This document shows positions 11,406 through 39,252 of a DNA stretch of 64,000 nt, in pieces; the stretch's first letter is position 1, and each line of letters begins with the position of its first letter. The DNA comes from a virus. A program made the translations under genes and the position numbers. Location: positions 1-64,000 of IMG/VR virus record IMGVR_UViG_3300036820_000002. One strand, given 5' to 3'. Under the pieces are notes generated by a model. The model was not told the DNA's origin, ran no database searches, and saw only the letters and a program-made list of their open reading frames with translations.

Positions 11406-11827
11406 CGTTCCGTATCCTGGTCACCGGCAGCAGGAAATGGGCTGACCCTGCCCGGGTTGCTCATGAGCTGTCCGCAGCTGCCGGTGACCAGAAGGCTGTG
11501 GCGGTAATTCACGGGGCCTGCCGGACCGGGGCGGACGTGCTGGCGGAAGTGGCGGCTCGTGGGCTCGGGTTCAGGACCGAACCTCATCCAGCCCGCTGGG
11601 GCGGCCCGTGCCGTCCGGCGTGCCCGCCGGGGCACCGTCATCAGCGGGTATGGCAAGGTGCCTGGTACTGCCCGTCCGCTGGGCTGTACCGTAACCAGGA
11701 GATGGTTGATGCCGGGGCTGATATCTGCCTGGCCTTTTTCTGGCCGGGTGCCGCGAACCTCGGTACCACCGACTGCGCCCGCCGTGCACGGGCAGCGGGG
11801 ATACCGGTGACGGACGTGAGGCCCTGA
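11402..11827 (+). CDS. SLOG family (DUF2493/YspA-like) protein
   Basis: RILVTGSRKW, IHGACRTGAD, AGLYRNQEMV, GTTDCARRARAAGIPV. Confidence 0.88.
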   Translation: MTFRILVTGSRKWADPARVAHELSAAAGDQKAVAVIHGACRTGADVLAEVAARGLGFRTEPHPARWGGPCRPACPPGHRHQRVWQGAWYCPSAGLYRNQEMVDAGADICLAFFWPGAANLGTTDCARRARAAGIPVTDVRP

Positions 11828-12105
11828 TGGCCAGGATGCTAGGTACGAACCGGGAGGCCGGATGTGGCCTCGGGAGATGTTACTACTGCCAGCGCGGGGA
11901 TGAGACCCGGCGGACCAAGCGCATTGAGGAGCGGCGGTGGCGCCGGGAGCTCGCTGATGAGATGACGCTGCTGCTGACGGAGGCGGCGCAGGTACGTGAT
12001 GGTTATGGTCCGCTGATGAGCGCGGTCTGCCTGCTGACCGGGTTCACCCCGGAGCGGGTCAATGAGCTCGGCGGGACAGGGGAACAGAATGGCGAAGAAA
12101 CCTAA
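11827..12105 (+). CDS. hypothetical protein
   Basis: ORF between SLOG gene and effector, overlapping both. Confidence 0.5.
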   Translation: MARMLGTNREAGCGLGRCYYCQRGDETRRTKRIEERRWRRELADEMTLLLTEAAQVRDGYGPLMSAVCLLTGFTPERVNELGGTGEQNGEET

Positions 12106-13621
12106 GCTTCCGTACCGGCGTGCCCAGACCTATGCCGCCGACCTGACCCCGGAACAGGAACAGGCTTTCGATGTGCTGGCGGCCGGGGTCCGCTGGGCCT
12201 GGAATCAGTGGTCCGCCTCCCAGGGTGCTCTCTGGAAAGCCCACGAGCTGCTGGAGACAACCTCTGAGCTGGGGAAGAAGATTACCGCCGCCCGTCAAGG
12301 TCATGAAATGTTCCGGTATTACACCACCAGCTGCTTGTTTACCGAGCATTCCTTTGCTGAGATTCCCCATACTTGTCTTTCTAGTGCCCTCCGCCAGTTC
12401 ACTGACGCATGGACACGTCATTTCAAGGCGCTGAAGACCGGGGCGCCCTCCTCGCCGCCTGGATTCCGCAGCTGGAAAGGCCCGCAGTCCCTGTACTGGG
12501 AGGTACAGCAGGACGATCATTCGTGTTCGCCGGGAGACGTGCTGCCCATCACGAGAGGTTCCGCCGTCCGCAGCACTCCGCATACGGCGATGCTACGGGT
12601 ACCTACCGCGCTTGGTTCTGCGATCTGCATCGGGAAGGTCAGTGTTCGCCTGCACCGGCTGCTGCCCGATGACGCCCGGGTGAATTTCGCCGTCCTGCGC
12701 CGGGATAAGATCGGGCGCTATGCGGTGACTGTCCAGTACCAGACAGCAACGGTGCGGCAGGGTGCCGCCACCGGCCTGACCGGGGTTGACCGAGGGAGTG
12801 TGGTCACAGCAGCCACTAGCTCGGGGGAGTTTTACAATGCTCCCGGCCTGACTCCCGGTCAGCTCAAACGTAAGCTCAGGCTGGAGCAGGGACTAGCTCA
12901 TAAGCGTCTAGCGAATAAGTGCATCCACGACGAGGAGATCACCGTCGGCGGTAAGATCTGGGTGAAGAGAGGCGACTGCCCTGAACCCGGTGACCCTGGC
13001 CACGACTGCCGGTGCTGGAAACATACCCGCAGCTATAAAGACCAGCAGCTTGCCTTGGCTAAGCTGTCCGTCCGTGAGCAGCGGATGCGCAAGGCAGTCT
13101 CGCACATGGCTTCCCGCGCGCTTGCTGACAGGTATGCCGTCGTGGTCATGGAAGACCTGAAGCTGTCTGCTATGACCAGGAGGGCGCACGGTCCCGGGTC
13201 GGCCGGCAAGACGGGGCGGAACCGGGAGATGCGGGCCGCGAGTTTGTACCAGCTGCAGAAACTCACTGAGTACAAGACGACGGTCGTGTATGTTCCGCCC
13301 CCCTATACCAGTCAGACCTGCCCCGCCTGCGGGCACGTGGACAAGAAAAACCGCGACGAACAGGTGTTCTGCTGCACGTCTTGTGGCCTGTCGGGTCATG
13401 CTGACGTCATCGCTGCCCGTAACATCGAGAACCTCTACGAGCGTCCCGGTGATGACTCAGATCCCGGGGGTCGCTCGCACGCAGGTCAGGATAGGGAAAT
13501 CGTACGTACGCTCGGGGAAAACCTTATCCCGGCGGCATGGGGGAGACCTGTCGCTCGCACGAGGCGACGTAAGGCCTGGTCAAAGCGGGTAAAAAAGCCG
13601 AGCCCTGGTGATAGTCTCTGA
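12089..13621 (+). CDS. compact type V CRISPR effector (TnpB/Cas12f/Cas12n-like RuvC nuclease, about 510 aa)
   Basis: RuvC-I GVDRG, RuvC-II VVMEDL, Zn ribbon YTSQTCPACG...CTSCG, RuvC-III HADVIAARNI; directly abuts CRISPR array; no tnpA. Confidence 0.9.
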   Translation: MAKKPKLPYRRAQTYAADLTPEQEQAFDVLAAGVRWAWNQWSASQGALWKAHELLETTSELGKKITAARQGHEMFRYYTTSCLFTEHSFAEIPHTCLSSALRQFTDAWTRHFKALKTGAPSSPPGFRSWKGPQSLYWEVQQDDHSCSPGDVLPITRGSAVRSTPHTAMLRVPTALGSAICIGKVSVRLHRLLPDDARVNFAVLRRDKIGRYAVTVQYQTATVRQGAATGLTGVDRGSVVTAATSSGEFYNAPGLTPGQLKRKLRLEQGLAHKRLANKCIHDEEITVGGKIWVKRGDCPEPGDPGHDCRCWKHTRSYKDQQLALAKLSVREQRMRKAVSHMASRALADRYAVVVMEDLKLSAMTRRAHGPGSAGKTGRNREMRAASLYQLQKLTEYKTTVVYVPPPYTSQTCPACGHVDKKNRDEQVFCCTSCGLSGHADVIAARNIENLYERPGDDSDPGGRSHAGQDREIVRTLGENLIPAAWGRPVARTRRRKAWSKRVKKPSPGDSL

Positions 13622-14506
13622 TCAGAGAATGAATTGCGACTAACCATTCCGCTCGCGACCCGCGTCAACAGGTCAGCTGGTGATAGTCTCTGATCAGAGA
13701 ATGAATTGCGACATCGATGACAAGCTCGGCCGCGAGAACTTCGGCCGGCTGGTGATAGTCTCTGATCAGAGAATGAATTGCGACTCATGGCAGCCATGCG
13801 ACATCTGCGGCGGCAACCTCCTGGTGATAGTCTCTGATCAGAGAATGAATTGCGACACCCCGATGCTCGTATTGGCCTCATGCCTAATGTGGCTGGTGAT
13901 AGTCTCTGAGCAGAGAATGAATTGCGACATCACGTACCTGATGACCTCGTTGTCCCCCCGGTGGTGGTGATAGTCTCTGAGCGGAGAATGAATTGCGACG
14001 CCGACTCCTGGTCCCCAGTGCTCACGCGTGCCCAGCCTGGTGATAGTCTCTGATCAGGGAATGAATTGCGACCCGAACGCCAAGGTCAGCAACCACAACA
14101 CTTACACCTAGTGATAGTCTCTGAGCAGAGAATGGATTGCGACACGAAAGCTCCCGTCTGCTCGCCGGTTTTGCCACACCTGGTGATAGTCTCTGACCAG
14201 AGAAATGAATTGCGACTTGAATCTGCGGTCCCGGCGCAACCAAGCCTGTTCCAGCTGGTGATAGTCTCTGATCAGGGAATGAATTGCGACACATCCAGAA
14301 GCCGTAGTGGAGAGCGGATCAGGCCGCTGGTGATAGTCTCTGAGCGGAGAATGAATTGCGACGGGGACATGCTGCTGTGCGAGAGCGCGGTGCCGCCTAG
14401 TGATAGTCTCTGACTAGAGAATGAATTGCGACGCCGTAACTCCCGTGATGATCGTTGGGGCAGTTGCGGGCTGGTGACAGTTTCTGACCAGAGAATGCAA
14501 TAATAA
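13605..14506 (+). CRISPR. CRISPR array, 13 repeats (last degenerate), 12 spacers of 34-38 bp
   Basis: 36-bp repeat CTGGTGATAGTCTCTGATCAGAGAATGAATTGCGAC starting at 13605, 13677, 13749, 13821, 13893, 13964, 14037, 14108, 14180, 14255, 14327, 14397, 14471. Confidence 0.98.
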
Positions 14507-14524
14507 TATGATTTAGGTAAATGA

Positions 14525-14655
14525 TAAGCAGTACCGCCGGGGCGCAACCGGTGTTAGCTACGGGTATGCCTGTCATGCAGGGGCCGCCCAGGAATCATTC
14601 TCTGTATTCTGCATGAAGAACCCCCCCGCCCTGGAAATGGGCGGGGGGGTTCTTT
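14525..14655 (+). ncRNA. candidate tracrRNA
   Basis: TCATTCTCTG (14595-14604) complementary to repeat CAGAGAATGA; loop CGCAA (14543-14547) complementary to repeat TTGCG; ends at terminator. Confidence 0.45.
14616..14654. terminator. intrinsic terminator between convergent units
   Basis: AAGAACCCCCCCGCCC/GGGCGGGGGGGTTCTT inverted repeat. Confidence 0.8.
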
Positions 14656-14662
14656 GCTTGCC

Positions 14663-15220
14663 TTACGGGGCCGGAATCAGCTCGGTGACGGGACGCCAGG
14701 TGCCGGTGACGATCCACAGCTGGGTTAGCGTGTGGCTGCGCAGCGGCTTCCACAGGGCGGGGCCGGGGATCTTCTTCGCGTCGGCGGACAGGGTCTCCCC
14801 GTTCAGCAGCCGGATCCGCCACTGGCTGGCGGTGGCGTTGTAGAAGGTTACCGCCGTCAGCGGCTCTTTCAGGATGACGGCGGTACTGTCCAGCTTGGTG
14901 GACAGGTACAGCAGCCGGTGCTTGCCGGTCTCCTCGTCTTCGGGGACCACGATCGTGCCGGGGGAGGCGTCCAGTCGGGTCAGCGCCCACAGCTGCCCGT
15001 AGGCTGCCGGGTTCTCCTGATGGCATTCCTGGACCGTGATTTCCTCTTCCTCCTTCCTGCTCCCGGCGGTCAGGCACCCGTGACTGCCTGCCAGCCGCAT
15101 CATGGTGATCAGCTGGTAGCCGTCGACCGGCGATCCCTTAGGTGCCGCCTGCGCAGGCATCGTGAAAGCGCAGAGCGCTGCCGCTGACAGCAGCGCTCCT
15201 GCCAGTACTGTCTTCTTCAT
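14663..15220 (-). CDS. secreted ricin-B lectin-like protein
   Basis: Signal peptide MKKTVLAGALLSAAAL...AQA; GCLTAG...VQEC...GQLW, TQLW. Confidence 0.65.
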   Translation of the reverse strand: MKKTVLAGALLSAAALCAFTMPAQAAPKGSPVDGYQLITMMRLAGSHGCLTAGSRKEEEEITVQECHQENPAAYGQLWALTRLDASPGTIVVPEDEETGKHRLLYLSTKLDSTAVILKEPLTAVTFYNATASQWRIRLLNGETLSADAKKIPGPALWKPLRSHTLTQLWIVTGTWRPVTELIPAP

Positions 15221-19023: not shown

Positions 19024-21978
19024 TCACGGCACCTCGCAGGTGTCTGAGGAGCAGTAAAGCTCGCCCTGCGCGTCGGGCAGTGACGGGTTCCCGTAGAGGG
19101 CATCCCAGTCCACGGGCTTCACCCGTGCGCGCAGCTCATCCCAGCGCTCCTTGCTGACCCGCTGGTACGGCGCCTGGGGATAGGTGCCCTCGGCCATCGG
19201 CAGGAAGGACACCGACTTGAGTTGCCCGTCGAAGGCGCGCAGCACCGCCGGGATGTCTTTTGCCTCCTCGGCGGAGAAGGTGATGGTGCAGCTAACCGCA
19301 TTGTCGGACCACCAGCGCTGGCACTGGGCGGCCAGCGCCGTCTTCTCCCACAGCGATACCTCCCGCTCCGGCCGGATATCGGGGCCCTCTACCGGCAGCG
19401 TGATCACCACCGTGGTCTCCGGGTCCATCACGCTCGGCTCGACGGGGTAGCCCGCCTCTTCCATGGCGCTGGCGAACGGGGAGCCGGCCATGTCGCGGAC
19501 GGTCCGCACGTAGAACCCCCTCTCCCTGGGCCAGTGCACGCCCGGGGTCGCGCCCCAGAGCAGGGATACCGTACCGCTCGGCTTCACCGTCGTCACCCGG
19601 ATTGACTCCCGGACCCCGAGCCATTCGGAGTAAACCCGGTCCCAGCGGCGGATCTCCCGGTAGCCCTCGTCCTGCCAGCGGCGCAGCTCCGCCCACCCGT
19701 TCGCTTCGGCGAACTGGACTACCCCGGTCATCGAGGTGCCGATGCGGCGGTTCCGGTTCATCACTTCGTTGGACTCGGGCCACTGCACCGGCAGCAGGGT
19801 GACGCTCTTGGCGTAGAGGTATGCGAATTTGAGGGTGCGGAGATAATCTTTGAGGTCGGTATGACGATAGGGGAAGGACTCGCATAGTGTGCAGAGTTCG
19901 TTGTCCTCAAGCGCCTGCTCCGCGCAATTTGACACGTTCATGCCACCGGACCAGTAGGTATGGCTCTCCCCGTCGACGGTGATATCCCAGACATCATGCC
20001 TGCCGAGGTGCTCGGTCTCGGTGATGCCGAATGACTGATCTGCGCAGCCGGTGTCCTTGCGGATGGTTTCCCGGAGCTTGTCCATCTTGTAGCCCTGGAT
20101 GAACCCGATGATCTTCGCGAAGCGGGCAGCATCCTGCGCTCTGCCGATATTCACGTCATAGGATTCGCGGGATTCATAATCACCGTTGGCCCATGTGATC
20201 CGTGACGGCTTATTCGTAGTGAAATAGGAGGCAATGCCTAGCGCGGACAGGGAGAGCTGGACGTCATCGCGCATCTGCGGCGACGCCGTCTTGAAGGTGA
20301 CCCGGCCGCTGACCACTGACCCGTTCGCCGAGTACAGCCCCCGGAGTACCGAAGGATTCCCCAGCAGCTCCGGCGGCATGAAGCGCTCGGGGAGCCGCCG
20401 GAAGCAGGAACCGCTGATGACCTTCTCAGTAGTCCAGGCACGGTCGGTGCCGTGGCGCCCCTTGATCAGGCCTGCGATCTCGCTGCTGAAATAATCCTGG
20501 TCGTTCTCGCCGATGCACAGCACGTGGTAAGCATTGCCACGGGTTTCATGGAGGTAGCCGTCGCCGAGCATGAGCCCGGCCAGGATGTCCTTGACATCGC
20601 GGGAGGTACCTGGCAGGCCGCCGCGCAGCCGGTCAATGGACTGGGCATCACCGAGCTCCGTCTTGATGCCGCCGGACATTACCCGGTGATTGACCGTGGC
20701 ATCCACATATCCCGCTGTCGTGCGGTACCGGTAGACGGTTTCCACCCCGGTGCGGATTTTGCGGGTGACCTTCACCCACCCGTCCTGTGACCAGACGGTA
20801 TCGCCCGGCTTGATCTCGCCCATGACGGTGATGCCGCCGGGAGTCAGCAGGGGTGCCCATTCCGGCTGACATGGGTTCGTGCCTTTCGTCCGGTACTCCC
20901 GGTGATCGGGAGGGTCGGCGAGCCGTCCGTGCTCCTGCATCATGTCGAGCCAGACCAGCCCCGGTTCCCCGTTGAGGGCGATTCGCTCTGCCAGGTGCGA
21001 GTAATCACTGCCGGAATAAGCGATGACTGAGTTATTCGACAGGTGACCCCAGCCGTTCGCTCCCATTCTCTCCGGGTTTTTCTTCCAGTTCTTCAGGTCC
21101 AGGAAGTTTTCATCCGCTGGGTCACCGAGCGCAATCTCGGCACTCCTGCGCACATTTCCTGCTACTACGCATTTGCCTGCCAGGTTCATGATGTCGGCAA
21201 TGTCAGTGGAGGTCAGCGGCTGATCCTGCCGGTTCCCTAGCAACCTGGTCAGCTGCTCGTGGAGCTGCTGAAGGATCGCGGGGCCGCTGGCCGTCCCGCC
21301 GAATCCCCGGATGGGCTCCCCGGCCGGGCGGATGCGGGAATAGTCGAAGACCGGCATCCTCCTGGCCGGGAGCAGGAAGGCGCGGAGCAGGCTGGCTACT
21401 GATTCCACCCAGCCTTCACGGCTGTCCGGAATCTGGTGCGGGAATTTTCCCTCCGGCTGGTGCAGCGTGATCTTGCCCGCGCCACGGGTATCGAATCCGA
21501 TCCCGACTCCGAGCATGAGCATGTCCATGGTCCGGGAGAAAGGAAGCGACGGGTCACCGGCTGACGCTATATCTTCGGTGGAAATAAACCCGCAGTTCTG
21601 GAGGGCGCTGGAATCACCGCGCCCGTTGACCATTTCCGTGCCGAGCATCCACAGGCCGCGTCCCGGCGGGCTCCATTTCCCGAGGAATGCCCGGTGGTAA
21701 GCTTCCTGGGCGGAGGCCTGAGCCTTCGCCTCATTCCAGGGCATCCGGTTCTTCGCAGCGTGGTCCTTCTGGATGGAGTACATGCCGGAGATGACCCGGT
21801 CCAGCCCCTCGCTGAAGCGTTCGCGGGTGCCGTCGGGCTTGCGCCGAGCGTACTTGGTCAGCCAGCTGTGCTCGCCGAGAGTGTTGCCCGCGCCCATCGG
21901 GAATCCGAAGCCGGGGTCGCGGCGGGTATAGCCTGCGATGAAATCCGGGTCCATGGTGAAGCTGAGCCATTCAGTCAC
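19024..21978 (-). CDS. nrdJ: class II (B12-dependent) ribonucleotide reductase with intein
   Basis: PPGRGLW, ALQNCGF, VVAGNVRRSAEI, TNP|CAEQ, TTVKPSGTVSLL. Confidence 0.95.
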   Translation of the reverse strand: MTEWLSFTMDPDFIAGYTRRDPGFGFPMGAGNTLGEHSWLTKYARRKPDGTRERFSEGLDRVISGMYSIQKDHAAKNRMPWNEAKAQASAQEAYHRAFLGKWSPPGRGLWMLGTEMVNGRGDSSALQNCGFISTEDIASAGDPSLPFSRTMDMLMLGVGIGFDTRGAGKITLHQPEGKFPHQIPDSREGWVESVASLLRAFLLPARRMPVFDYSRIRPAGEPIRGFGGTASGPAILQQLHEQLTRLLGNRQDQPLTSTDIADIMNLAGKCVVAGNVRRSAEIALGDPADENFLDLKNWKKNPERMGANGWGHLSNNSVIAYSGSDYSHLAERIALNGEPGLVWLDMMQEHGRLADPPDHREYRTKGTNPCQPEWAPLLTPGGITVMGEIKPGDTVWSQDGWVKVTRKIRTGVETVYRYRTTAGYVDATVNHRVMSGGIKTELGDAQSIDRLRGGLPGTSRDVKDILAGLMLGDGYLHETRGNAYHVLCIGENDQDYFSSEIAGLIKGRHGTDRAWTTEKVISGSCFRRLPERFMPPELLGNPSVLRGLYSANGSVVSGRVTFKTASPQMRDDVQLSLSALGIASYFTTNKPSRITWANGDYESRESYDVNIGRAQDAARFAKIIGFIQGYKMDKLRETIRKDTGCADQSFGITETEHLGRHDVWDITVDGESHTYWSGGMNVSNCAEQALEDNELCTLCESFPYRHTDLKDYLRTLKFAYLYAKSVTLLPVQWPESNEVMNRNRRIGTSMTGVVQFAEANGWAELRRWQDEGYREIRRWDRVYSEWLGVRESIRVTTVKPSGTVSLLWGATPGVHWPRERGFYVRTVRDMAGSPFASAMEEAGYPVEPSVMDPETTVVITLPVEGPDIRPEREVSLWEKTALAAQCQRWWSDNAVSCTITFSAEEAKDIPAVLRAFDGQLKSVSFLPMAEGTYPQAPYQRVSKERWDELRARVKPVDWDALYGNPSLPDAQGELYCSSDTCEVP
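19927..20871 (-). mobile_element. intein with LAGLIDADG endonuclease (315 aa) at RNR catalytic Cys
   Basis: CQPEWAPLLTP...ATVNHRV...GLMLGDG...LRGLYSANG...VWDITVDGESHTYWSGGMNVSN|C. Confidence 0.93.
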
Positions 21979-21986
21979 ATGCCTCC

Positions 21987-22373
21987 TCACGAGGGGTCCA
22001 GGGTAAGAAGCGCCTTCTCCCGGCTCAGGAGACTGCGGCCGATCTCTATGCGCTTGTGCAGCGCGGTCAGGCTGGCCTGCTGGCAGCGGACTGCCGCCTT
22101 GGCCCGGGACCAGTCCAGGGAGGCGACGTGGAGGTCCAGCCGGTAACTGCCGGTGACCAGCCGGGCTGTCGCCTTGCGGGCTTCCACGCCCCCGTCCGCG
22201 TCCAGGAATGCCCTGTCCAGCGCGTCACCGAAGGCGTTCTCCCGGGTCCGGAACCGTCCTTCCGCTTCCACCGACTCCAGCTCCAGCCCGGCCAGCGTCT
22301 CCACCGACTCCTCCAGGTCACGGCCCAGCTGCCCGAGCTGGCGGGCCAGCGTCTCCGCATCGTAGGAGCTCAT
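21987..22373 (-). CDS. coiled-coil hypothetical protein
   Basis: Coupled ORF in recombination operon. Confidence 0.6.
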   Translation of the reverse strand: MSSYDAETLARQLGQLGRDLEESVETLAGLELESVEAEGRFRTRENAFGDALDRAFLDADGGVEARKATARLVTGSYRLDLHVASLDWSRAKAAVRCQQASLTALHKRIEIGRSLLSREKALLTLDPS

Positions 22374-31025: not shown

Positions 31026-31045
31026 AGCAGAGAATGAATTGCGAC
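31026..31045 (+). repeat. solitary partial CRISPR repeat (3' 20 nt)
   Basis: AGCAGAGAATGAATTGCGAC identical to the 3' end of array repeat 5. Confidence 0.85.
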
Positions 31046-32736: not shown

Positions 32737-32809
32737 TCGGACGTAGCTCAACGGGGAGAGCTCTGGTCTCCAAAACCAGCGGTTGAGGGTTCGAGTCCCT
32801 CCGTCCGGG
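32737..32809 (+). tRNA. tRNA-Trp(CCA)
   Basis: Cloverleaf; CTGGT-CT-CCA-AA-ACCAG. Confidence 0.9.
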
Positions 32810-32914
32810 CGAGGCACCACCTGCGGGTGTACGTGCGTGATCATTGACAACTCCATCTGTTGACGGGCCGGATGACCAGGGGTGAACGATGCCGCTGTAC
32901 CGTCCGGTCTCGTG

Positions 32915-32987
32915 GGGGCCTTGGCGCAGCTGGCAGCGCGTCTCTTTTGCACGGAGAAGGTCGCGGGTTCGATCCCCGCAGGCTCCA
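32915..32987 (+). tRNA. tRNA-Ala(TGC)
   Basis: Cloverleaf, G3:U70. Confidence 0.9.
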
Positions 32988-32992
32988 CGTCA

Positions 32993-33066
32993 GGGGGTTT
33001 GGCGCAGTCCGGAAGCGCGCTTCCTTCGCAAGGAAGAGGGCACGGGTCCGAATCCCGTAACCTCCA
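32993..33066 (+). tRNA. tRNA-Ala(CGC)
   Basis: Cloverleaf, G3:U70, T-loop TCC. Confidence 0.88.
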
Positions 33067-33073
33067 CCTGTAC

Positions 33074-33147
33074 GGGGCTTTAGCGCAGCCTGGTAGCGCG
33101 TCTGCGTGGCACGCAGAAGGTCGCGGGTCCGAATCCCGCAAGCTCCA
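33074..33147 (+). tRNA. tRNA-Ala(GGC)
   Basis: Cloverleaf, G3:U70, T-loop TCC. Confidence 0.88.
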
Positions 33148-33292
33148 CGAAAGAAGGGCCTGGCGCTGTCGGGCGTCAGGACTAAACGACATCCGGCGGG
33201 GCCCCAGTGATTACAACGGGCCGGGCGGCAGTCAGGGTACTACTCATGAGGTCCGCGCTCCCGCTTACTGGTGGTACTGCTAGGAATAGCAT

Positions 33293-33366
33293 CGGGTTGT
33301 GGCGCAGCTTGGCAGCGCGCGTCGTTCGGGACGACGAGGTCGGCCGTTCAAATCGGCCCAGCCCGA
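33293..33366 (+). tRNA. tRNA-Pro(CGG)
   Basis: Cloverleaf. Confidence 0.9.
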
Positions 33367-33449
33367 CTCTGAGGAGCTGCATACGGGGATGAGATAAGCC
33401 CTGGCTGTGTGTGGCGGTGAAAGTCCGTGCCAGTTCCTCAGTTTTTAAA

Positions 33450-33523
33450 CGGAGTATGGCGCAGCTTGGCAGCGCGCCCGGCTGGGGGCCGGGAGGTCGC
33501 GGTTTCGAATACCGCTACTCCGA
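33450..33523 (+). tRNA. tRNA-Pro(GGG)
   Basis: Cloverleaf. Confidence 0.88.
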
Positions 33524-33577
33524 CGAGCAGCCCGGACGCAGGCGCCGCCGGACGGCCTGGGCGGGCTGCCAGGTGTA

Positions 33578-33649
33578 CGGGGTGTAGCTCAGTGGCAGAG
33601 CACCGCGTTTGGGACGCGGGGGTCGTCCGTTCGGTCCGGACCACTCCGA
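33578..33649 (+). tRNA. tRNA-Pro(TGG)
   Basis: Cloverleaf. Confidence 0.88.
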
Positions 33650-33661
33650 CGTAAGTACTAT

Positions 33662-33733
33662 GGTCACCTAGCTGAGACGGATTAGCGGCTGCCTGAAAAG
33701 CAGCAGAGGCAGGGTCGCTACCTGCGGTGGCCA
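33662..33733 (+). tRNA. tRNA-Phe(GAA)
   Basis: Cloverleaf with atypical T-loop GTCGCTA. Confidence 0.8.
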
Positions 33734-34024
33734 CGGGGCTATAGGGAATCTCTTTGATGGTATCCTTGGCCTTTACCGGAAGACAGGACTAGAACCGTGG
33801 CCTCTGGCGGGGCCTTCGAAGAGAATTCCGGACACGATGAGGTCTTCCTTCCCTTACCGCGCTGAACACCTGTCTTCCCTCATAGTCGTGAGCCCCGGGT
33901 CCGCCTCTGCCTGCATGCCGCCCGGGGCACGGCCTGCCCCTGCCCTGACCTGGTCTCCGCGTACGGATAGCTTTATGGCATCCGTATGCAGTGGAGTATC
34001 CGTTTGAATCGGAAAGGGGCTCCT

Positions 34025-34095
34025 GCGGGTGTCGTCCAAAGGCAGGACAGCAGCCCTCCAAGCTGCTTACGCCGGTTCGACCCCGGTCACCCGCT
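34025..34095 (+). tRNA. tRNA-Gly(TCC)
   Basis: Cloverleaf; C at position 33. Confidence 0.82.
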
Positions 34096-34107
34096 CTTAT
34101 CAGCCAT

Positions 34108-34181
34108 GGGCCGCTAACTCAAGTGCGAAGAGTACCGTCCTCTTAAGTCGGAAGTTCCGGGTTCGAGTCCCGGGCGGCTCA
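34108..34181 (+). tRNA. tRNA-Lys(CTT)
   Basis: Cloverleaf. Confidence 0.88.
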
Positions 34182-34223
34182 CTGCTAGTGTTAAGGAGGG
34201 CGGCTCACTGCTAGTGTTAAGGA
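34172..34223 (+). repeat. 26-bp tandem duplication including tRNA-Lys 3' end
   Basis: GGGCGGCTCACTGCTAGTGTTAAGGA x2. Confidence 0.9.
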
Positions 34224-34274
34224 GAATGTCATGCACGCTCTCTATAAACAGGTCCCGGCCATCTGATAAACCGG

Positions 34275-34348
34275 GAGCCGCTAACTCAAATGCGAAGAGT
34301 ACCGATCTTTTAAATCGGGAGTTCAGGGTTCGAGTCCCTGGCGGCCCA
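34275..34348 (+). tRNA. tRNA-Lys(TTT)
   Basis: Cloverleaf. Confidence 0.88.
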
Positions 34349-34470
34349 CAGGAGAGAATATGCCGCAGGTCATCTGCCCGGACTGCAAGGGCGGTGAAGA
34401 CGATAAGAAGGACTGCGAGCGGTGCCATGGCACCGGTACTATCTGGGTGGACAGCGGCTCCGGCTGGTAA

Positions 34471-34546
34471 GGGCGGGTAAGTCCAATCTGGTAGAGCTGG
34501 CCTGCTCAAAACAGGTCGTATGCGGGTTCGAGCCCCGCCCCGCCTA
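34471..34546 (+). tRNA. tRNA with CAA anticodon (Leu) lacking long variable arm
   Basis: GCCTG-CT-CAA-AA-CAGGT; short variable loop. Confidence 0.7.
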
Positions 34547-34727
34547 CGGAAGAGATGAATGGGATGCAGCGGCGGCAGACCCGGGGCCTGGCTGAGGGTG
34601 ATGTCTTCACCGGCTGGAAGCATGTGCTCTGCTACGTGCAGCGAGCGGGAGTGAAGAGCGGTATCAAGCGCGGTGCCCGGCGGCGGGAGCGGCGTGAGGG
34701 CAAGGCGCAGCTGCGGGAAGAACAGAT

Positions 34728-35033
34728 ATGAAGAGAAGGCCGGTGGCGGCATTCGACGTGGACGGCACCCTCCTCCGGGACGACGACAGCCCCCGCGAGG
34801 AGATGGTCTCGTTGCTGATGGCACTGGTGCCGTACTGCAGGATCGTGGTCTGGTCCGGTTGCGGGAGCGATTATGCGGTGATGCAGGGACGGCGGCTCAG
34901 GCTCCCGGACGGCATCACCTACATGGCGAAGGCCGGCGGGTTCGCCGACCTCTGCTTTGATGACCAGGATGTTAACCTGGCGACCGTGAACATCATGGTC
35001 GCCGATGAGGAGCAATCCTCCGATCCCGCTTAG
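34728..35033 (+). CDS. small HAD-family phosphatase
   Basis: AFDVDGTL, IVVWSG, LCFDD. Confidence 0.75.
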   Translation: MKRRPVAAFDVDGTLLRDDDSPREEMVSLLMALVPYCRIVVWSGCGSDYAVMQGRRLRLPDGITYMAKAGGFADLCFDDQDVNLATVNIMVADEEQSSDPA

Positions 35034-35096
35034 TTCAGCTGGTAGAACGCCGCCCTCTGAAGGCGGAAGTGCGAGGTTCGAAACCTTGAGCGGGAG
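35024..35096 (+). tRNA. tRNA-Gln(CTG)
   Basis: Cloverleaf. Confidence 0.88.
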
Positions 35097-35100
35097 CTGT

Positions 35101-35138
35101 GCCCCTGTAGCTCAGCCGGAAGAGCGGTCACCTCGTAC
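35101..35138 (+). pseudogene. tRNA 5' half ending at anticodon loop
   Basis: GCCCCTGTAGCTCAGCCGGAAGAGCGGTCACCTCGTAC; no 3' half follows. Confidence 0.6.
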
Positions 35139-35147
35139 AGAAATCTT

Positions 35148-35221
35148 GCCGTCATAGCTCAGCTGGTCAGAGCGGCTGTCTCGTAAACAGCAGGTGGCAG
35201 GTTCGAGCCCTGCTGGCGGCT
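35148..35221 (+). tRNA. tRNA-Thr(CGT)
   Basis: Cloverleaf. Confidence 0.9.
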
Positions 35222-35260
35222 CTCCGTGGTCAGGGGCTCTGGCCGAAGAGAAGGAGAAGG

Positions 35261-35464
35261 ATGAGCGAACAGGACAGGACGGCGGCCGTTCACGCCTCCG
35301 TCGATGAGAAGGCGGCTGAGCTCGCGCTGATGGAGCACATCCGGGCGGCAGTGTACAGCCTGGAGGTTCCTATTTCCCAGGTCGTGCTCCGCTTCGAGGA
35401 GAAGCTCCGCGAGCTGCTCCCGGTGGCGCCGGGGGAGACCTTGAAGACGCCGGACAGCGAGTAG
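35261..35464 (+). CDS. hypothetical protein
   Basis: Strong RBS, GC3 bias. Confidence 0.6.
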   Translation: MSEQDRTAAVHASVDEKAAELALMEHIRAAVYSLEVPISQVVLRFEEKLRELLPVAPGETLKTPDSE

Positions 35465-35465
35465 C

Positions 35466-35978
35466 ATGGGCCGTATCGCGGTAGCAATGGTCGCGGTGGC
35501 GGTGGCCGCCGGAGCCTGCTTCGCACCGGCTGCGGAAGCCAAGCCAGCTCCGTCGAGCCATGAGGTGGCTTATGATGATATCCGGGCAGCGGGAACCAGG
35601 GAATGTTTCGCGGTCTCGGGGCTGCGGGTGATAATCGCTACCTGCAATGTCCATGACGGTCATCAGGAATGGCTTCTCAACCGCTATGGAGCACTGCTGG
35701 AGATAGCCAGCTCGGAGTACCCCGGGCTGTGCCTCGGCAAGCCCGGCTACCCGGTGACGCTCAGTTCATGTGCGGACCTGAATGCTCACGGTTACCCGCT
35801 CCGCCTTGATGAGACCGCCAGGGAGACGATGACTGTGGAACTGGCGCGTACGGGTGACCTGTTGTCTTCCTGCCTCTCCGGCGACGAGGAGGCGATCGCC
35901 CGCTGGACGGTCAGGAACACTGCCGACTGCCTCCAGGAGCTTGTGCTTCCGGAATGGAAGCCGGTGAAGGACGCGTAA
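35466..35978 (+). CDS. secreted ricin-B lectin-like protein
   Basis: Signal peptide; ECFAV...ATC...HQEW, GLCLG...LSSC. Confidence 0.65.
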   Translation: MGRIAVAMVAVAVAAGACFAPAAEAKPAPSSHEVAYDDIRAAGTRECFAVSGLRVIIATCNVHDGHQEWLLNRYGALLEIASSEYPGLCLGKPGYPVTLSSCADLNAHGYPLRLDETARETMTVELARTGDLLSSCLSGDEEAIARWTVRNTADCLQELVLPEWKPVKDA

Positions 35979-35992
35979 GGAGGGAGAAGGAG

Positions 35993-36217
35993 ATGGCCGT
36001 AGAGATTGCGCTGAAGCACAAGTACCGGATGGGCAGCACCGGCAAGAGGAATGCGTCCCGGGGCAATAACAGCGGTACGAACAAGCACCGGGGCGAGGAT
36101 AAGAACCGGCTTGCGTTCGCCCAGTCTCAGACCAGGGCAAACCAGCGGATGCTGGTTATGCTGCCGACCGGCAGGTTCCGGTGGGTGCTGGCGGCGGACT
36201 GGGGTGGCAGCCGCTAG
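35993..36217 (+). CDS. small basic hypothetical protein
   Basis: GGAG RBS. Confidence 0.45.
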   Translation: MAVEIALKHKYRMGSTGKRNASRGNNSGTNKHRGEDKNRLAFAQSQTRANQRMLVMLPTGRFRWVLAADWGGSR

Positions 36218-36251
36218 CGGGCGGCCTGGCGGGATATCAGGAAGATAACAT

Positions 36252-36336
36252 GCGCTCGTGGCGGAATGGCAGACGCGCAGCGTTGAGGTCGCTGTGCTCC
36301 GCGAGGGGCGTCCCGGTTCAAGTCCGGGCGGGCGCA
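36252..36336 (+). tRNA. tRNA-Leu(GAG)
   Basis: Cloverleaf with long variable arm. Confidence 0.9.
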
Positions 36337-36407
36337 CACCGTGTCTGGCTGGTCACGGTGAGATGATATGAGCAGGGCCCGTGGCGAGTGCCAGCTCGCT
36401 ACGGCAC

Positions 36408-36481
36408 GCCGCCTTAGCTCAGTCTGGCAGAGCAACCGCCCTGTAAGCGGTAGGTCACCCGTTCGAGGCGGGTAGGCGGCT
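36408..36481 (+). tRNA. tRNA-Thr(TGT)
   Basis: Cloverleaf; C33. Confidence 0.82.
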
Positions 36482-36794
36482 CACGAGGTAATCCCAGGGG
36501 AAGGGGACGAATGGATTTCAGTGACGCGCTGAGCACTATGCGGCAGGGCGGCAGGGTACGGCGGCGGTTGTGGTCACAGATATGGCCCGCGCACCTATGG
36601 CTGGAGATCGTGGCGAACTGGGACCTCCTGGCCAGTGACTGGGAGGCAGAGTAATCAGCCGGCGGGATTGGACGACCCCGAAGGCGCATGCCCGCAGGCC
36701 GCACCATAAAGCCATGCACAGCGGCAAGAAAGGGAGAGGTGGGGATAAGAAGCTGAAGGAAGTCAAGCGCCTGCTCGCGCAGGGAGCAGTGTAA

Positions 36795-36868
36795 TGCCCG
36801 CTGGGGTAACCGGCAAGCCCACCGGGTTTTGGTCTCGGGTGTTCCAGGTTCGAATCCTGGGCGGGCAG
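36795..36868 (+). tRNA. tRNA-Gln(TTG)
   Basis: Cloverleaf. Confidence 0.88.
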
Positions 36869-36965
36869 CGAGGAGATAGGGTTCTGCGCACGGAGATGAT
36901 TCTCCTCTGTCTAAACATGGCATAGTGCCTGGGTTACGGTACCCGGTGTCTAAAAGCCGCTGTAA

Positions 36966-37038
36966 GCCTCTCTAGCTCATCCGGCAGAGCGTGGCCATGG
37001 TAAGGTCAAGGCGAGCGGTTCGAGTCCGCTGGGAGGCT
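36966..37038 (+). tRNA. tRNA-Thr(GGT)
   Basis: Cloverleaf. Confidence 0.88.
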
Positions 37039-37154
37039 CACCGGGATACGTCTGGCACCGTGGCGTGTCCCTGCCGGTCCCACGAAGATGCTGACCTTCA
37101 CGGAGGGCCGGTAACCAGCCAGCCCTGGTCAGCGGGCGCTGGCACGGTGCACAC

Positions 37155-37226
37155 GCGGTTGTGGCGCAGTGGTAGCGCACCACCTTGCCAAGGTGGGGGT
37201 CACGGGTCCGAATCCCGTCAGCCGCT
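37155..37226 (+). tRNA. tRNA-Gly(GCC)
   Basis: Cloverleaf, T-loop TCC. Confidence 0.88.
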
Positions 37227-37287
37227 CGGAGGGACAACGCTGGGGGCTGACTTACCCAAGGAGATCGTCACTGGTGTCCCTTCTCAT

Positions 37288-37359
37288 GCGGCCATAATTC
37301 AATGGCAGAATGCCACCTTCCCATGGTGGAGACGAGGGTTCGACTTCCCTCTGGCCGCT
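37288..37359 (+). tRNA. tRNA-Gly(CCC)
   Basis: Cloverleaf. Confidence 0.85.
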
Positions 37360-37392
37360 CTGTTCCTTACGCCGAGACGCGTGAGGAACCCC

Positions 37393-37477
37393 GGGCGAGT
37401 GGTGGAATGGTAGACACGCATGCCTCAGGAGTATGTGTCTTAACGACGTGGGGGTTCGACTCCCCCCTCGCCTACCA
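37393..37477 (+). tRNA. tRNA-Leu(CAG)
   Basis: Cloverleaf with long arm, encoded CCA. Confidence 0.9.
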
Positions 37478-37557
37478 GCAGGAAGCTTTTATGATAGAAC
37501 CCGGATTCCCGGGTACTGTCTGACGGACTCCATAACCCGGGCTTCCTGCTGTTTTCC

Positions 37558-37646
37558 GGAGTGGTCGCCTAGTCCGGCCCATGGCGCTCGACTGCTAATC
37601 GAGTGGGGTCTCACCGCCCTCGGGAGTTCAAATCTCCCCCGCTCCG
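37558..37646 (+). tRNA. tRNA-Ser(GCT)
   Basis: Cloverleaf with long arm. Confidence 0.88.
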
Positions 37647-37677
37647 CCCTGTTTCAGTGAACTGAAGGAAGAGATAC

Positions 37678-38253
37678 GTGATGATACGGTCGGCTGTTCT
37701 CGCAGCAGCAGCTGCCATGACGGCAGCGATTGCCCTGGCTGTCCCTGCTGGTGCGGTGACGGGACCTCCGGCCGGCTCCCGGGGAACCGGGGTGATCTCG
37801 GTGAGGACGAGCAAGGAGAAGCTCTGCCTGACCGCCCTGGGCAGCGGGGTGGTCGTGGCCAAGCCGTGCGTATCCAGGCTCAGCGACGAAGGGGACGGGC
37901 AGGCGTGGTTGCTGTCCCGTTATGACGGCTTCCTGGCCGTGAGGTCAGTCCGCGAGTCAGGTGAGTGCCTGGGGTCGCGTGGCGGGACGGCTTCCGCTGT
38001 GCTGGTGAGCTGCACGGCGAGCAATGAGGGCGGTGACGCTCTCCGCTACGTGGAACTGGGTGACGACGCGTGTCCCGGTATCGCTGCCACCTCAGATTGC
38101 GCCGAGATCACGCTGGTTAACGGGCGTAAGCTGACCGCCTGGGTCGCGGCCCGGGGCCATCGTGACTCCTATGCCGTCGTGACCTGGGATGAGGATCCGG
38201 GAGGCATGAACGTCCGGTTTACCTGGGCGGTGCCGGGGTGGCATCATGATTAG
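37678..38253 (+). CDS. secreted ricin-B lectin-like protein
   Basis: Signal peptide; LCLTA...KPC...GQAW, ECLGS...VSC. Confidence 0.65.
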   Translation: MMIRSAVLAAAAAMTAAIALAVPAGAVTGPPAGSRGTGVISVRTSKEKLCLTALGSGVVVAKPCVSRLSDEGDGQAWLLSRYDGFLAVRSVRESGECLGSRGGTASAVLVSCTASNEGGDALRYVELGDDACPGIAATSDCAEITLVNGRKLTAWVAARGHRDSYAVVTWDEDPGGMNVRFTWAVPGWHHD

Positions 38254-38259
38254 CAGGAG

Positions 38260-38295
38260 CTGGTGATAGTCTCTGACCAGAGAATGAATTGCGAC
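38260..38295 (+). repeat. solitary full-length CRISPR repeat
   Basis: CTGGTGATAGTCTCTGACCAGAGAATGAATTGCGAC, 35/36 to consensus. Confidence 0.95.
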
Positions 38296-38408
38296 AGGAA
38301 TTGCGGCAAGGACCTGTACCGGGAGTGCTTTGACTGCTGGGACGGGTACCATGTCTACGCTACGACACCGGGGAGCAGGATCAGGTGCCCTCCGTGTGAC
38401 CAGAAGAA

Positions 38409-38533
38409 GACCGGGAAGGTGGGCTTAGAGGCAGCCATCCTCTAAGGAGTGAGAGTACCGGCGTGAGGCGTCGGCGGAGCGCCTGGCCTCACCGGGCAGC
38501 TCCGGTCTCTTCGGCGTAACAGCACACCCGGTC
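38409..38533 (+). ncRNA. 23S rRNA L11-binding (GTPase-associated centre, H43-H44) mimic
   Basis: GACCGGGAAGGTGGGCTTAGAGGCAGCCATCCTCTAAGGAGT...GCGTAACAGCACACCCGGTC aligns to 23S nt about 1050-1108 with a hairpin insertion. Confidence 0.75.
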
Positions 38534-38584
38534 AGTCCTGATGGTGTACAGTGAACAGGGAAAAGAAAGAACAGTGAGGAACGG

Positions 38585-39055: not shown

Positions 39056-39059
39056 AGGG

Positions 39060-39250: not shown

Positions 39251-39252
39251 TG

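What the first reader, a model, noticed from the sequence alone, without database searches (positions are those of the whole stretch)
13430..13640. Effector stop codon lies inside CRISPR repeat 1; the ORF tail looks like structured RNA
Seen: the last codons PGDSL-TGA are read from repeat 1, so no separate leader exists. The 60-aa tail after RuvC-III contains GTCGCTCGCACG twice (13470, 13550), the pairs CAGGTC/GACCTG and GGATAGGG/CCTTATCC, and GTCGC complementary to the repeat end GCGAC. Established: TnpB omegaRNA and Cas12n tracrRNA overlap the 3' end of their ORFs. Inference: an omegaRNA-derived scaffold or leader, suggesting an evolutionary intermediate.
Basis: partly seen in the sequence, partly recalled or inferred. 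Interest (0 to 1): 0.7.

Follow-up and report, generated by a model that had tools for sequence, protein, structure and literature searches.

The report
Phage mini-CRISPR nuclease overlapping its array
A large soil phage carries a small TnpB-derived CRISPR nuclease whose gene runs straight into its own repeat array, and the structured guide-RNA module that relatives hide inside the gene's tail seems here to have moved to a small separate RNA gene behind the array.

Summary
ORF 12062-13621 (519 aa, TnpB family, intact RuvC triad) stops at 13619-13621, inside repeat 1 (13605-13640) of a 13-unit array. The 12-mer occurs twice (5 of 2000 shuffles do as well). The same ORF/array overlap is seen in 4 of 8 distinct homologous loci.

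In relatives the ORF tail does encode a structured, omegaRNA-derived module: four helices, 12 of 19 pairs with compensatory changes, 0 of 500 shuffles as good. That module is missing from this window's tail. What remains (13430-13604) folds no better than shuffles (z -0.96) and has no anti-repeat of 9 nt or more. Part of it looks like real protein (pLDDT 88 at residues 481-490).

A covariance model and a sequence profile of the module both place their best hit in the whole 130-kb phage just behind the array (14524-14611, E about 0.05-0.07). That stretch also holds the genome's only 10-nt complement of the repeat (14595-14604). It lies between a promoter-like site and a strong terminator, so it is a candidate tracrRNA gene.

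This is a new variant of a known kind (Cas12n-like / TnpB-to-CRISPR intermediates). No expression data exist.

The parts
12062..13621 (+). Effector gene, 519 aa (P0001): TnpB-family RNA-guided nuclease, Cas12n-like
   Evidence: NCBIfam NF040570 guided_TnpB: 142.3 bits against cutoff 100, residues 23-457. Pfam PF07282: 64 bits. PADLOC best model Cas12u4: 116 bits. D243/E364/D448 and the zinc-finger cysteines are invariant in 28 relatives. AF2 mean pLDDT 81.9. Best fold matches are TnpB structures 8h1j, 8iaz and 8exa, TM(target) 0.73-0.79.
13433..13618 (+). C-terminal tail codons (aa 458-519), beyond every TnpB profile. Read here as the remnant of the linker between the scaffold module and repeat 1.
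   Evidence: The profile match ends at residue 457. pLDDT is 45-52 for residues 461-480 and 51-64 for 491-519. Fold z -0.96. Codon identity at identical residues, WIN against L008: 16/26 in the tail, 93/217 in the core, p 0.055.
13470..13481 (+). First copy of the 12-mer direct repeat (module 1)
   Evidence: A related block is present in 3 of the 4 relatives that keep this part.
13550..13561 (+). Second copy of the 12-mer (module 2), read in another frame
   Evidence: Six of its bases are invariant in all 6 group A rows.
13502..13543 (+). Codons for residues 481-494: a short conserved peptide motif predicted to be ordered
   Evidence: pLDDT 88 for residues 481-490. P490 and G494 are nearly invariant in 28 proteins.
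13605..13640 (+). CRISPR repeat 1. It contains the effector stop codon at 13619-13621 (repeat positions 15-17).
   Evidence: The same arrangement is seen in L008, L089, L090 and L096.
13605..14506 (+). CRISPR array: 12 full repeats, 12 spacers of 34-38 nt, and a degenerate last repeat from 14471
   Evidence: No spacer matches the phage's own genome beyond 9-17 nt or GenBank phages.
14484..14512 (+). Promoter-like site (9 of 12 consensus matches) in the AT-rich gap after the array
   Evidence: 2 sites found in 11500-15000 against 0.8 +/- 1.1 in shuffles, so a consensus match only. GC is 0.35 at 14470-14529.
14519..14662 (+). Candidate small RNA gene (tracrRNA-like): a diverged copy of the scaffold 5' module, then an anti-repeat, then a terminator
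14524..14611 (+). Best match in the whole phage genome to the covariance model of the relatives' scaffold module. Stem A is 14535-14540 with 14548-14553.
   Evidence: R1: 13.9 bits, E 0.055 genome-wide and 0.0042 in 10 kb with filters off. nhmmer profile built without this row: best hit 14532-14574, E 0.072, next best E 2. 13 of 19 model pairs are formed.
14595..14604 (+). Anti-repeat: a 10-nt exact complement of repeat positions 19-28
   Evidence: It is the only exact complement of 10 nt or more of the repeat in 130,268 bp on both strands, outside the array and orphan repeats. It pairs 10 of 10 (Watson-Crick plus G-U) with 11 of 12 full repeats.
14616..14654 (+). Intrinsic-terminator hairpin (16-bp stem) followed by a T-rich run
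   Evidence: With it, 14519-14662 folds at z -4.18 (0 of 200 shuffles). Without it, z is +0.39.
38260..38295 (+). Solitary full-length repeat (35 of 36 identical), far from the array and directly upstream of a small ORF
31028..31045 (+). Solitary partial repeat (the 3' 18 nt), between two genes

Best explanation
This is a stand-alone type V-like CRISPR system of a complete 130-kb phage. Its nuclease descends from TnpB and is closest to the V-U4/Cas12n kind.

Origin of the overlap (inferred). In the ancestor, the guide RNA (omegaRNA) began inside the 3' end of the gene. The array arose by repeated duplication of the last 36 nt of that RNA plus its guide. This is why the ORF runs into repeat 1 and uses a stop codon that belongs to the repeat.

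Layout in relatives (shown). The ORF tail still carries the scaffold: a four-helix module, followed by a short arm that pairs with the repeat just before its invariant 3' end.

Layout in this phage (inferred). That module has been lost from the tail. A diverged copy, carrying a 10-nt anti-repeat at the homologous position, lies behind the array with its own promoter-like site and terminator. It would act in trans as a tracrRNA on every crRNA, and on the solitary repeats elsewhere in the genome.

It is not the scaffold.

Shown: the layout, its conservation across the family, the RNA structure in relatives, and the position of the homologous copy and anti-repeat. Inferred: expression and function of the small RNA, and the order of events.
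For: 1. Family-wide overlap.
- 4 of 8 distinct homologous loci (L008, L089, L090, L096) have 36-nt arrays that start inside the ORF end, with the stop at repeat positions 15-17.
- 1 locus (L093) has a single truncated unit.
- 3 loci (L009, L088, L091) have irregular mini-repeats that keep only the repeat's 3' end.
- 13 of 28 family proteins end at the same alignment column as P0001, and P0002 reads on through two repeats.

2. Structured RNA in relatives' tails.
- 8 rows: 99.3% of 152 cells paired, 7 of 19 pairs compensatory, score 0.380 against 0.138 +/- 0.029, 0 of 500 shuffles, slid controls at most 54.6%.
- 12 rows, including 3 stand-alone copies and the window copy: 96.1% of 228 cells paired, 12 of 19 compensatory, 0 of 500.
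- Codon positions 1/2/3 there are 0.94/0.82/0.85 identical, against 0.72/0.77/0.51 in the core.

3. OmegaRNA origin. The same model hits the ORF 3' ends of 4 of 70 distant metagenomic TnpB loci that have no arrays, and 0 of 85 viral TnpB loci.

4. The module is absent from the window's tail.

5. The best genome-wide hit lies behind the array by two methods. The genome's only anti-repeat of 10 nt or more is in the same stretch.
- It follows the module as the 5' arm of the terminal helix does in the one-piece genes of L088 and L009 (direct reading).
- All 6 substitutions within repeat positions 19-28 keep pairing as G-U, while position 18 carries transversions.

6. None of the 9 neighbouring ORFs scanned hit a Cas1, Cas2 or Cas4 family.

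7. Residues 481-490 have pLDDT 88, and the rest of the tail is at or below 64.
Against: - Both model hits behind the array are marginal on their own (E 0.055 and 0.072).
- Only 13 of 19 model pairs form in the window copy, against 18-19 of 19 in the other 11 copies. It may be decaying.
- Without the terminator, the small RNA body folds no better than shuffles (z +0.39).
- The promoter is only a consensus match.
- A 10-nt anti-repeat is short.
- The repeat has its own internal palindrome, which could make the system crRNA-only. The wobble-compatible substitutions fit that hairpin as well.
- The terminal-helix covariation across relatives is not significant: 85.7% of 35 cells paired, 1 compensatory change, 128 of 500 shuffles as good.
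- The window tail does show mildly raised synonymous conservation (0.62-0.64 against 0.43, p about 0.055 per pair) and a non-random 12-mer duplication. Some RNA-level role of the tail is therefore not excluded.
- No RNA data are available.
Confidence: 0.5

Rival explanations
1. crRNA-only system. The window's repeat folds into its own hairpin and suffices as the guide handle, as in phage Cas12r or Cas12j. The module behind the array is a decaying relic of a former one-piece guide gene, and the tail is protein only.
For: - The repeat has a perfect internal palindrome.
- The window copy of the module forms only 13 of 19 pairs, and its body fold has z +0.39.
- Phage Cas12r (564 aa) works with crRNA alone (bioRxiv 10.64898/2026.04.20.719267, passages read).
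- Group B loci show that one-piece guide genes exist next to such effectors.
Against: - The anti-repeat is a perfect 10-mer against the current repeat consensus and is unique in the genome.
- It extends 4 nt beyond what the repeat's own hairpin arm can pair.
- Stem A is kept with a compensatory top pair.
- The core of about 460 aa is TnpB-sized, and solved TnpB and Cas12f complexes use long scaffolds (one search names the structures; the scaffold lengths are recalled).
Confidence: 0.25
2. The tail 13430-13604 is itself the functional scaffold or tracrRNA, or a processing leader, with its two 12-mer copies pairing to the repeat's 3' end.
For: - The 12-mer duplication is non-random (5 of 2000).
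- Its core is conserved in two different reading frames in relatives.
- Five bases of it can pair with the invariant repeat end.
- Synonymous conservation is mildly raised.
- In Cas12n the tracrRNA lies in the ORF tail (PMC12216341, passages read).
Against: - Fold z is -0.96.
- The duplex to the repeat is not above shuffles (135 of 300).
- No complement of 9 nt or more lies in the tail.
- The stand-alone guide genes of relatives lack this part altogether, so it is not needed for a complete guide RNA.
- Codon-position pattern in the equivalent segments of relatives: two segments still show a lower third position than first position (0.59/0.49/0.47 and 0.70/0.60/0.52), though far less markedly than the core. 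The last segment is flat (0.64/0.69/0.63).
Confidence: 0.15
3. The locus is no longer a working defence or competition system. It would be a domesticated or decaying TnpB remnant whose array and scattered repeats are selfish or regulatory DNA.
For: - There is no adaptation module.
- No spacer target was found.
- The last repeat is degenerate, and several repeats differ from the consensus.
Against: - The catalytic triad and zinc finger are intact and invariant.
- The ORF is open over 519 codons.
- 12 different spacers sit between well-kept repeats.
- Relatives in two complete phage genomes keep arrays of up to 20 repeats.
Confidence: 0.08

Closest known systems
Cas12n (type V-N, formerly V-U4 / C2c9)
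   Same: It is a small TnpB-like effector with a largely disordered C-terminal tail. In Cas12n the tracrRNA region overlaps the ORF 3' end, with the array downstream and no adaptation genes (PMC12216341, passages; PMC11641405, passages; bioRxiv 10.64898/2026.03.27.714800, section 6). The PADLOC Cas12u4 model is the best-scoring model for P0001 (116 bits, residues 13-469). The relatives of this window share the ORF-embedded scaffold.
   Different: - The margin over Cas12f models is small (116 against 111 bits).
- Similarity to solved RdCas12n (9j09) covers only residues 333-464, at E 3.4e-6.
- The family is phage-borne and from soil metagenomes.
- In this window the scaffold module is not in the ORF tail but behind the array.
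- The ORF stop lies in repeat 1. I found no statement of this for Cas12n in the texts read.
TnpB with its omegaRNA/reRNA (IS200/IS605, IS607)
   Same: - The NCBIfam guided_TnpB cutoff is passed.
- The best structural matches are ISDra2 and ISFba1 TnpB.
- The guide RNA starts inside the gene's 3' end.
- The same four-helix module sits at the ORF 3' ends of array-less TnpB loci L103, L107, L145 and L126.
   Different: - This locus has a 13-unit CRISPR array instead of a single guide.
- No transposase was seen among the 9 neighbouring ORFs tested.
- The ORF is extended by about 60 codons (130 or more in relatives) through the RNA-coding region.
TranC, transposon-CRISPR intermediates, and the 'functional RNA splitting' model (Jin et al., Cell 2025). 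The paper was not held; it is known here through PMC13565253 and bioRxiv 10.64898/2026.03.27.714800, passages read.
   Same: These are TnpB-sized effectors with short arrays, in which the omegaRNA is split into tracrRNA and crRNA. This family shows one-piece, ORF-embedded and (in the window) apparently split forms side by side.
   Different: - Sequence similarity to solved LaTranC is weak (E 4e-4; fold rank 19).
- Clade membership could not be tested because supplements are closed.
- Use of both CRISPR RNA and reRNA is untested.
Phage-encoded miniature type V systems: Cas12r (Thermus Lalka phages), Cas12p 'hacker', Cas12j
   Same: These are TnpB-like or small Cas12 effectors plus a short array in a phage genome, with no Cas1/Cas2 and a presumed role in inter-phage or host conflict (bioRxiv 10.64898/2026.04.20.719267 and 10.1101/2025.01.20.633832, sections and passages read).
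   Different: - Cas12r uses crRNA only, with 29-bp repeats.
- Cas12p (9jfs) matches only at E 0.009.
- No close homologue was found among 50,697 GenBank phage records (best 33% identity over half the protein).

Membership tests
TnpB family RNA-guided endonuclease | Profile match above the curated cutoff | tested here: met
   NF040570: 142.3 bits against cutoff 100. PF07282: 64 bits against 26.3.
TnpB family RNA-guided endonuclease | RuvC D-E-D triad and CxxC...CxxC zinc finger | tested here: met
   D243, E364, D448, C420, C438 and C441 are invariant, and C423 is nearly invariant, in 28 sequences.
TnpB family RNA-guided endonuclease | Residence in an IS200/IS605 or IS607 element with TnpA and transposon ends | tested here: not met
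   The 9 neighbouring ORFs scanned gave NUDIX, SLOG, AAA_25 and RNR with a LAGLIDADG insert. No transposase was found. Transposon ends were not searched.
Type V CRISPR effector (Cas12 in the broad sense) | Conserved association of a RuvC effector with a CRISPR array downstream | tested here: met
   The window plus 4 of 8 distinct homologous loci have 36-nt arrays, and 3 more have mini-repeats.
Type V CRISPR effector (Cas12 in the broad sense) | RNA-guided DNA interference with a PAM | not testable with these tools
   No protospacer was found for the window's spacers.
Cas12n (V-U4) | Sequence membership | tested here: inconclusive
   PADLOC Cas12u4 is the best model (E 5e-34, 116 bits), but Cas12f models follow at 111 and 103 bits and no cutoff is given. 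The match to 9j09 is only E 3.4e-6 over residues 333-464.
Cas12n (V-U4) | Disordered C-terminal tail | tested here: inconclusive
   pLDDT is 45-64 for most of residues 461-519, but 88 for 481-490.
Cas12n (V-U4) | tracrRNA with anti-repeat encoded inside the ORF 3' end | tested here: not met
   This is met in relatives. In the window's tail there is no module and no repeat complement of 9 nt or more.
Cas12n (V-U4) | 5'-AAN PAM | not testable with these tools
   No target was identified.
tracrRNA (for 14519-14660) | Anti-repeat complementary to the CRISPR repeat, encoded next to the array | tested here: met
   An exact 10-nt complement of repeat positions 19-28, unique in the genome and about 90 nt after the last repeat.
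tracrRNA (for 14519-14660) | Expressed as a discrete small RNA bound by the effector | not testable with these tools
   No RNA run holds the locus. There are only promoter-like and terminator-like sites.
TranC | Placement in a published TranC clade; dual use of crRNA and reRNA | not tested
   The paper and its supplements are not held. Only weak similarity to LaTranC was seen.
Rfam RNA families | Match to any curated family in 13200-13800 | tested here: not met
   There were 0 matches at E up to 10. Only tRNAs were found in the whole window at gathering score.

The most novel reading that the evidence does not exclude
One phage-borne nuclease family preserves every step of the birth of a CRISPR system from a transposon guide RNA:
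- one-piece guide genes;
- a scaffold buried in the nuclease's own reading frame, with an array budding from its 3' end;
- in this phage, a scaffold physically split off to a separate tracrRNA gene behind the array.

The split would free the effector to use any repeat in trans. This would include four solitary repeats scattered through the phage genome, directly in front of phage genes. These could act as fixed guides for RNA-guided homing or exclusion of rival phages, or for control of those genes.

Because the stop codon sits inside repeat 1, maturation of the first crRNA could cut the nuclease's own mRNA before its stop. That would tie enzyme level to guide production.
Probability: 0.2. Interest if true: 0.8.

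Novelty: new variant of a known kind. Interest (0 to 1): 0.5.

Why it matters
How CRISPR arrays and tracrRNAs arose from transposon guide RNAs is an active question. The 'RNA splitting' model and Cas12n as an early intermediate are recent proposals based on a few families.

This family offers a natural series within close relatives, so the steps can be compared base by base:
- a single guide;
- irregular mini-repeats;
- full arrays whose first repeat overlaps the nuclease stop codon;
- an apparently relocated tracr module.

It also adds a compact effector (about 460-aa core) from complete phage genomes, with a defined candidate guide architecture that can be tested directly. If the solitary repeats are used as guides, that would be a new way for a phage to deploy an RNA-guided nuclease.

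Tried and rejected
- Rfam: no family in 13200-13800 at E up to 10.
- Fold energy of the tail: not above shuffles.
- RNAduplex of tail against repeat in 5 loci: as good or better in 135, 73, 15, 149 and 125 of 300 shuffled repeats for WIN, L008, L089, L090 and L096. Not informative in this G+C-rich DNA.
- RNAalifold on the shared 3' part of the tail: it gave changing consensus structures, and I could not settle a fold.
- The small hairpins I read by eye there are 3-5 bp and were not tested. I make no claim on them.
- Terminal-helix covariation on A2: not significant.
- Repeat pattern scan of viral contigs: 0 hits.
- Tail pattern scans: only L008's own contig in viral contigs, and 0 in genome contigs.
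- A second genome-contig scan gave 5 loci with no protein similarity to the family, so they are chance matches.
- Spacer search against GenBank phages: no match.
- Spacers against the phage's own genome: only short chance hits.
- Sequencing runs: no RNA holder listed. One DNA run, possibly the source, was listed.
- Supplements of PMC10691335 (the V-U6 to V-U45 lists) and the TranC paper could not be seen. The family may already be listed there.
- A co-fold of the candidate small RNA with a crRNA was not obtained.
Full report
**What is there**

The window is the first 64 kb of a complete 130,268-bp virus record with direct terminal repeats. The exact terminal repeat is 127 bp and G+C is 65.5%. 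The window carries 39 tRNA genes.

ORF 12062-13621 (+) encodes a 519-aa protein, P0001.
- It passes the NCBIfam cutoff for RNA-guided TnpB: 142.3 bits against 100, residues 23-457.
- It has the Cas12f1-like TNB domain.
- Its best structural matches are TnpB complexes (8h1j, 8iaz, 8exa), ahead of Cas12f, Cas12m, LaTranC and Cas12p.
- The best PADLOC model is Cas12u4, the V-U4/Cas12n model, at 116 bits, narrowly ahead of Cas12f models at 111 and 103 bits.

A CRISPR array of 36-nt repeats starts at 13605. It has 12 full repeats, 12 spacers of 34-38 nt, and a degenerate thirteenth repeat at 14471. None of the 9 neighbouring ORFs scanned hit a Cas1, Cas2 or Cas4 family.

**The observation**

The stop codon 13619-13621 is positions 15-17 of repeat 1, so the last five codons are repeat sequence.

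The 12-mer occurs at 13470 and 13550. Only 5 of 2000 shuffles of the tail hold a direct repeat that long.

However, the fold of 13430-13604 is ordinary for its composition: z -0.96, with 34 of 200 shuffles as good. Pairing of the tail with the repeat is no better than with shuffled repeats (135 of 300).

**Relatives**

A search of 5.8 billion proteins scored the 7,999 candidates that shared the most words with the query and gave 406 hits. Among them, 28 metagenomic proteins stand out: E at or below 3.5e-60, 33-50% identity, 396-587 aa. All are unnamed or called 'transposase'.

I aligned P0001 with 27 of them, leaving out the 396-aa P0023. D243, E364, D448 and the zinc-finger cysteines are invariant. 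The tail is conserved at about the level of the core: WIN against L008 gives 26 of 57 tail residues and 223 of 447 core residues identical.

DNA was obtained for 8 distinct homologous loci: L008, L009 = L094, L088, L089, L090, L091 = L092 = L095, L093, and L096 = L097.
- In L008, L089, L090 and L096 a 36-nt array starts at the same codon as in the window, and the stop is again repeat positions 15-17.
- L008 lies in a complete 210-kb phage and has 20 repeats, all in one array.
- L093 has no array. Its ORF ends directly before a truncated repeat end followed by unique sequence.
- L009, L088 and L091 keep only the last 10-14 nt of the repeat, recurring at irregular spacing.
- 13 of 28 proteins end at the same alignment column as P0001, and P0002 reads on through two repeat units.

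The ORF/array overlap is therefore a family trait and not an accident of this contig.

**The tail as RNA, in relatives**

Most relatives carry about 45 extra codons just after RuvC-III. P0001 and P0002 lack them.

This stretch behaves like RNA rather than protein:
- Codon positions 1/2/3 are 0.94/0.82/0.85 identical among group A rows, against 0.72/0.77/0.51 in the core.
- It folds into four helices.
- On 8 tail copies, 99.3% of 152 cells pair, 7 of 19 pairs show compensatory changes, no shuffle of 500 reaches the covariation score, and slid controls pair at most 54.6%.

A covariance model of it (R1) also finds stand-alone copies outside any ORF tail:
- on the minus strand upstream of the effector in L091/L092/L095 (66.8 bits);
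- on the minus strand in L088 (62.4 bits);
- on the plus strand 2.5 kb downstream in L009 (43.3 bits).

Read directly, these are compact one-piece guide genes. Each has the module, a two-base linker, a short terminal helix (in L088 and L009), the invariant repeat end, and then unique sequence.

With these copies and the window copy, 96.1% of 228 cells pair and 12 of 19 pairs are compensatory, with 0 of 500 shuffles as good.

The model also hits the ORF 3' ends of 4 of 70 more distant, array-less TnpB loci (L103, L145, L107, L126) and 0 of 85 viral TnpB loci. The module is therefore an inherited omegaRNA part.

**The tail in this window**

The module and the arm that follows it are absent from 13430-13604.

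What remains corresponds to the stretch that, in relatives, lies between the scaffold and repeat 1. The stand-alone guide genes lack this stretch altogether.

Its RNA-level signal is weak:
- Synonymous conservation is 16 of 26 and 14 of 22 in the tail, against 93 of 217 and 90 of 208 in the core (WIN against L008 and L090). Each pair gives p about 0.055.
- There is the 12-mer duplication, whose six-base core is invariant in relatives in two reading frames.

On the protein side, AlphaFold2 (28-row alignment, mean pLDDT 81.9) gives 45-64 for most of the tail but 88 for residues 481-490. That is a motif with nearly invariant P490 and G494.

I could not settle a consensus fold for this part.

**Behind the array**

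Searched over the whole phage, R1's best hit is 14524-14611 (+): 13.9 bits, E 0.055, and E 0.0042 in 10 kb with filters off. A sequence-only profile built without the window row also has its best hit there: 14532-14574, E 0.072, next best E 2.

Each hit is marginal alone. But both fall within about 30 nt of the array's end on the array's strand.

Stem A and its loop match the group B tail copies in 19 of 23 columns, and the top pair is a third compensatory variant. The rest is eroded: 13 of 19 pairs form, against 18-19 of 19 in the other 11 copies.

Right after the module and the same two-base linker comes 14595-14604. This is the only exact complement of the repeat of 10 nt or more in the whole genome, outside the array and solitary repeats.
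- It pairs with repeat positions 19-28. That leaves 8 nt of repeat before the spacer, against 7 nt in the one-piece genes of relatives (direct reading).
- It pairs 10 of 10, counting G-U, with 11 of 12 full repeats and with both full solitary repeats.
- The 6 substitutions inside positions 19-28 are all wobble-compatible transitions, whereas position 18 carries transversions.

A promoter-like site (14484-14512) precedes the unit, and a 16-bp terminator hairpin (14616-14654) ends it. The promoter is a consensus match only. Without the terminator, the body's fold energy is unremarkable (z +0.39).

**Reading**

The simplest account is that the array grew from the 3' end of an ORF-overlapping omegaRNA. 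That explains the stop codon in repeat 1. In this phage's lineage the scaffold module then left the ORF tail and now sits, with an anti-repeat, behind the array as a tracrRNA-like gene.

The flagged tail would then be a translated leftover with one ordered motif.

The main rival is a crRNA-only system with a decaying relic behind the array. The repeat's own palindrome and the eroded helices speak for that rival. The perfect, unique and correctly placed anti-repeat speaks against it.

No RNA data exist for this phage, so function is inferred.

**What is known**

- Independent births of type V systems from TnpB, with arrays downstream of the gene and proposed origin by duplication of omegaRNA segments, are described, with 40 provisional V-U branches (PMC10691335, passages).
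- Cas12n as an early intermediate, and TranC with 'RNA splitting', are in print (seen through PMC13565253 and the 2026 preprint).
- Phage-borne miniature effectors are known (Cas12r, Cas12p).
- My searches found no text describing a stop codon inside repeat 1, or a scaffold module relocated behind the array. The key supplements and the Cell paper were not available, so this is not proof of absence.

I file this as a new variant of a known kind.

Noticed in passing
window 38260-38295 (+) and 31028-31045 (+); beyond the window, G000:C1 111282-111317 (-) and about 128757-128791 (-): Solitary copies of the CRISPR repeat are scattered through the phage genome: two full copies (35 and 34 of 36 identical), one degenerate full copy and one 3' partial copy. 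Two of them supply the start codon and first four codons of a downstream ORF (38284-38445, a 53-aa cysteine-rich ORF; and a 155-aa ORF on the minus strand). One lies 54 nt upstream of a gene. None has the scaffold module beside it, and their flanking 'guides' have no second copy in the genome. L008's 210-kb phage has none.
   Followed up: partly
L095 2811-2900 (-), L088 2641-2739 (-), L009 7026-7108 (+): Stand-alone one-piece guide-RNA genes (scaffold module plus repeat end plus unique sequence) sit next to the effector in three relatives. Two of them are on the opposite strand, just upstream of the effector's start.
   Followed up: partly
window 62839-62856 (+): The first 18 nt of spacer 1 of relative L090 match this phage exactly. 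The match lies in a conserved motif of a glycosyltransferase-like ORF on the minus strand, and similarity continues codon-wise beyond it. The spacer probably comes from a homologous gene of another phage or host.
   Followed up: partly
window 32737-44434: There are 39 tRNA genes in 12 kb, all on the + strand. One solitary repeat (38260) lies among them.
   Followed up: no
window 19024-21990 (-): A 988-aa ribonucleotide reductase ORF has a LAGLIDADG domain inserted (residues 548-629). This is probably an intein or homing endonuclease.
   Followed up: no
proteins P0002, P0011, P0022: P0002's called ORF reads through two repeat units because its repeat has no in-frame stop. The tails of P0011 and P0022 do not align with the rest. 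By my hand reading of the P0011 and P0004 peptides, P0011 looks like a +1-frame reading of a P0004-like tail that still stays open. Neither was checked on DNA, which was not available.
   Followed up: no
L096 and L097: In these two copies of one locus the effector frame is broken upstream of the tail: the stop-to-stop ORFs are short, while the tail and array are intact. Whether this is an assembly error or a pseudogene was not resolved.
   Followed up: no
window 14180-14216: One repeat of the array is 37 nt long, with one extra base in its A run.
   Followed up: no
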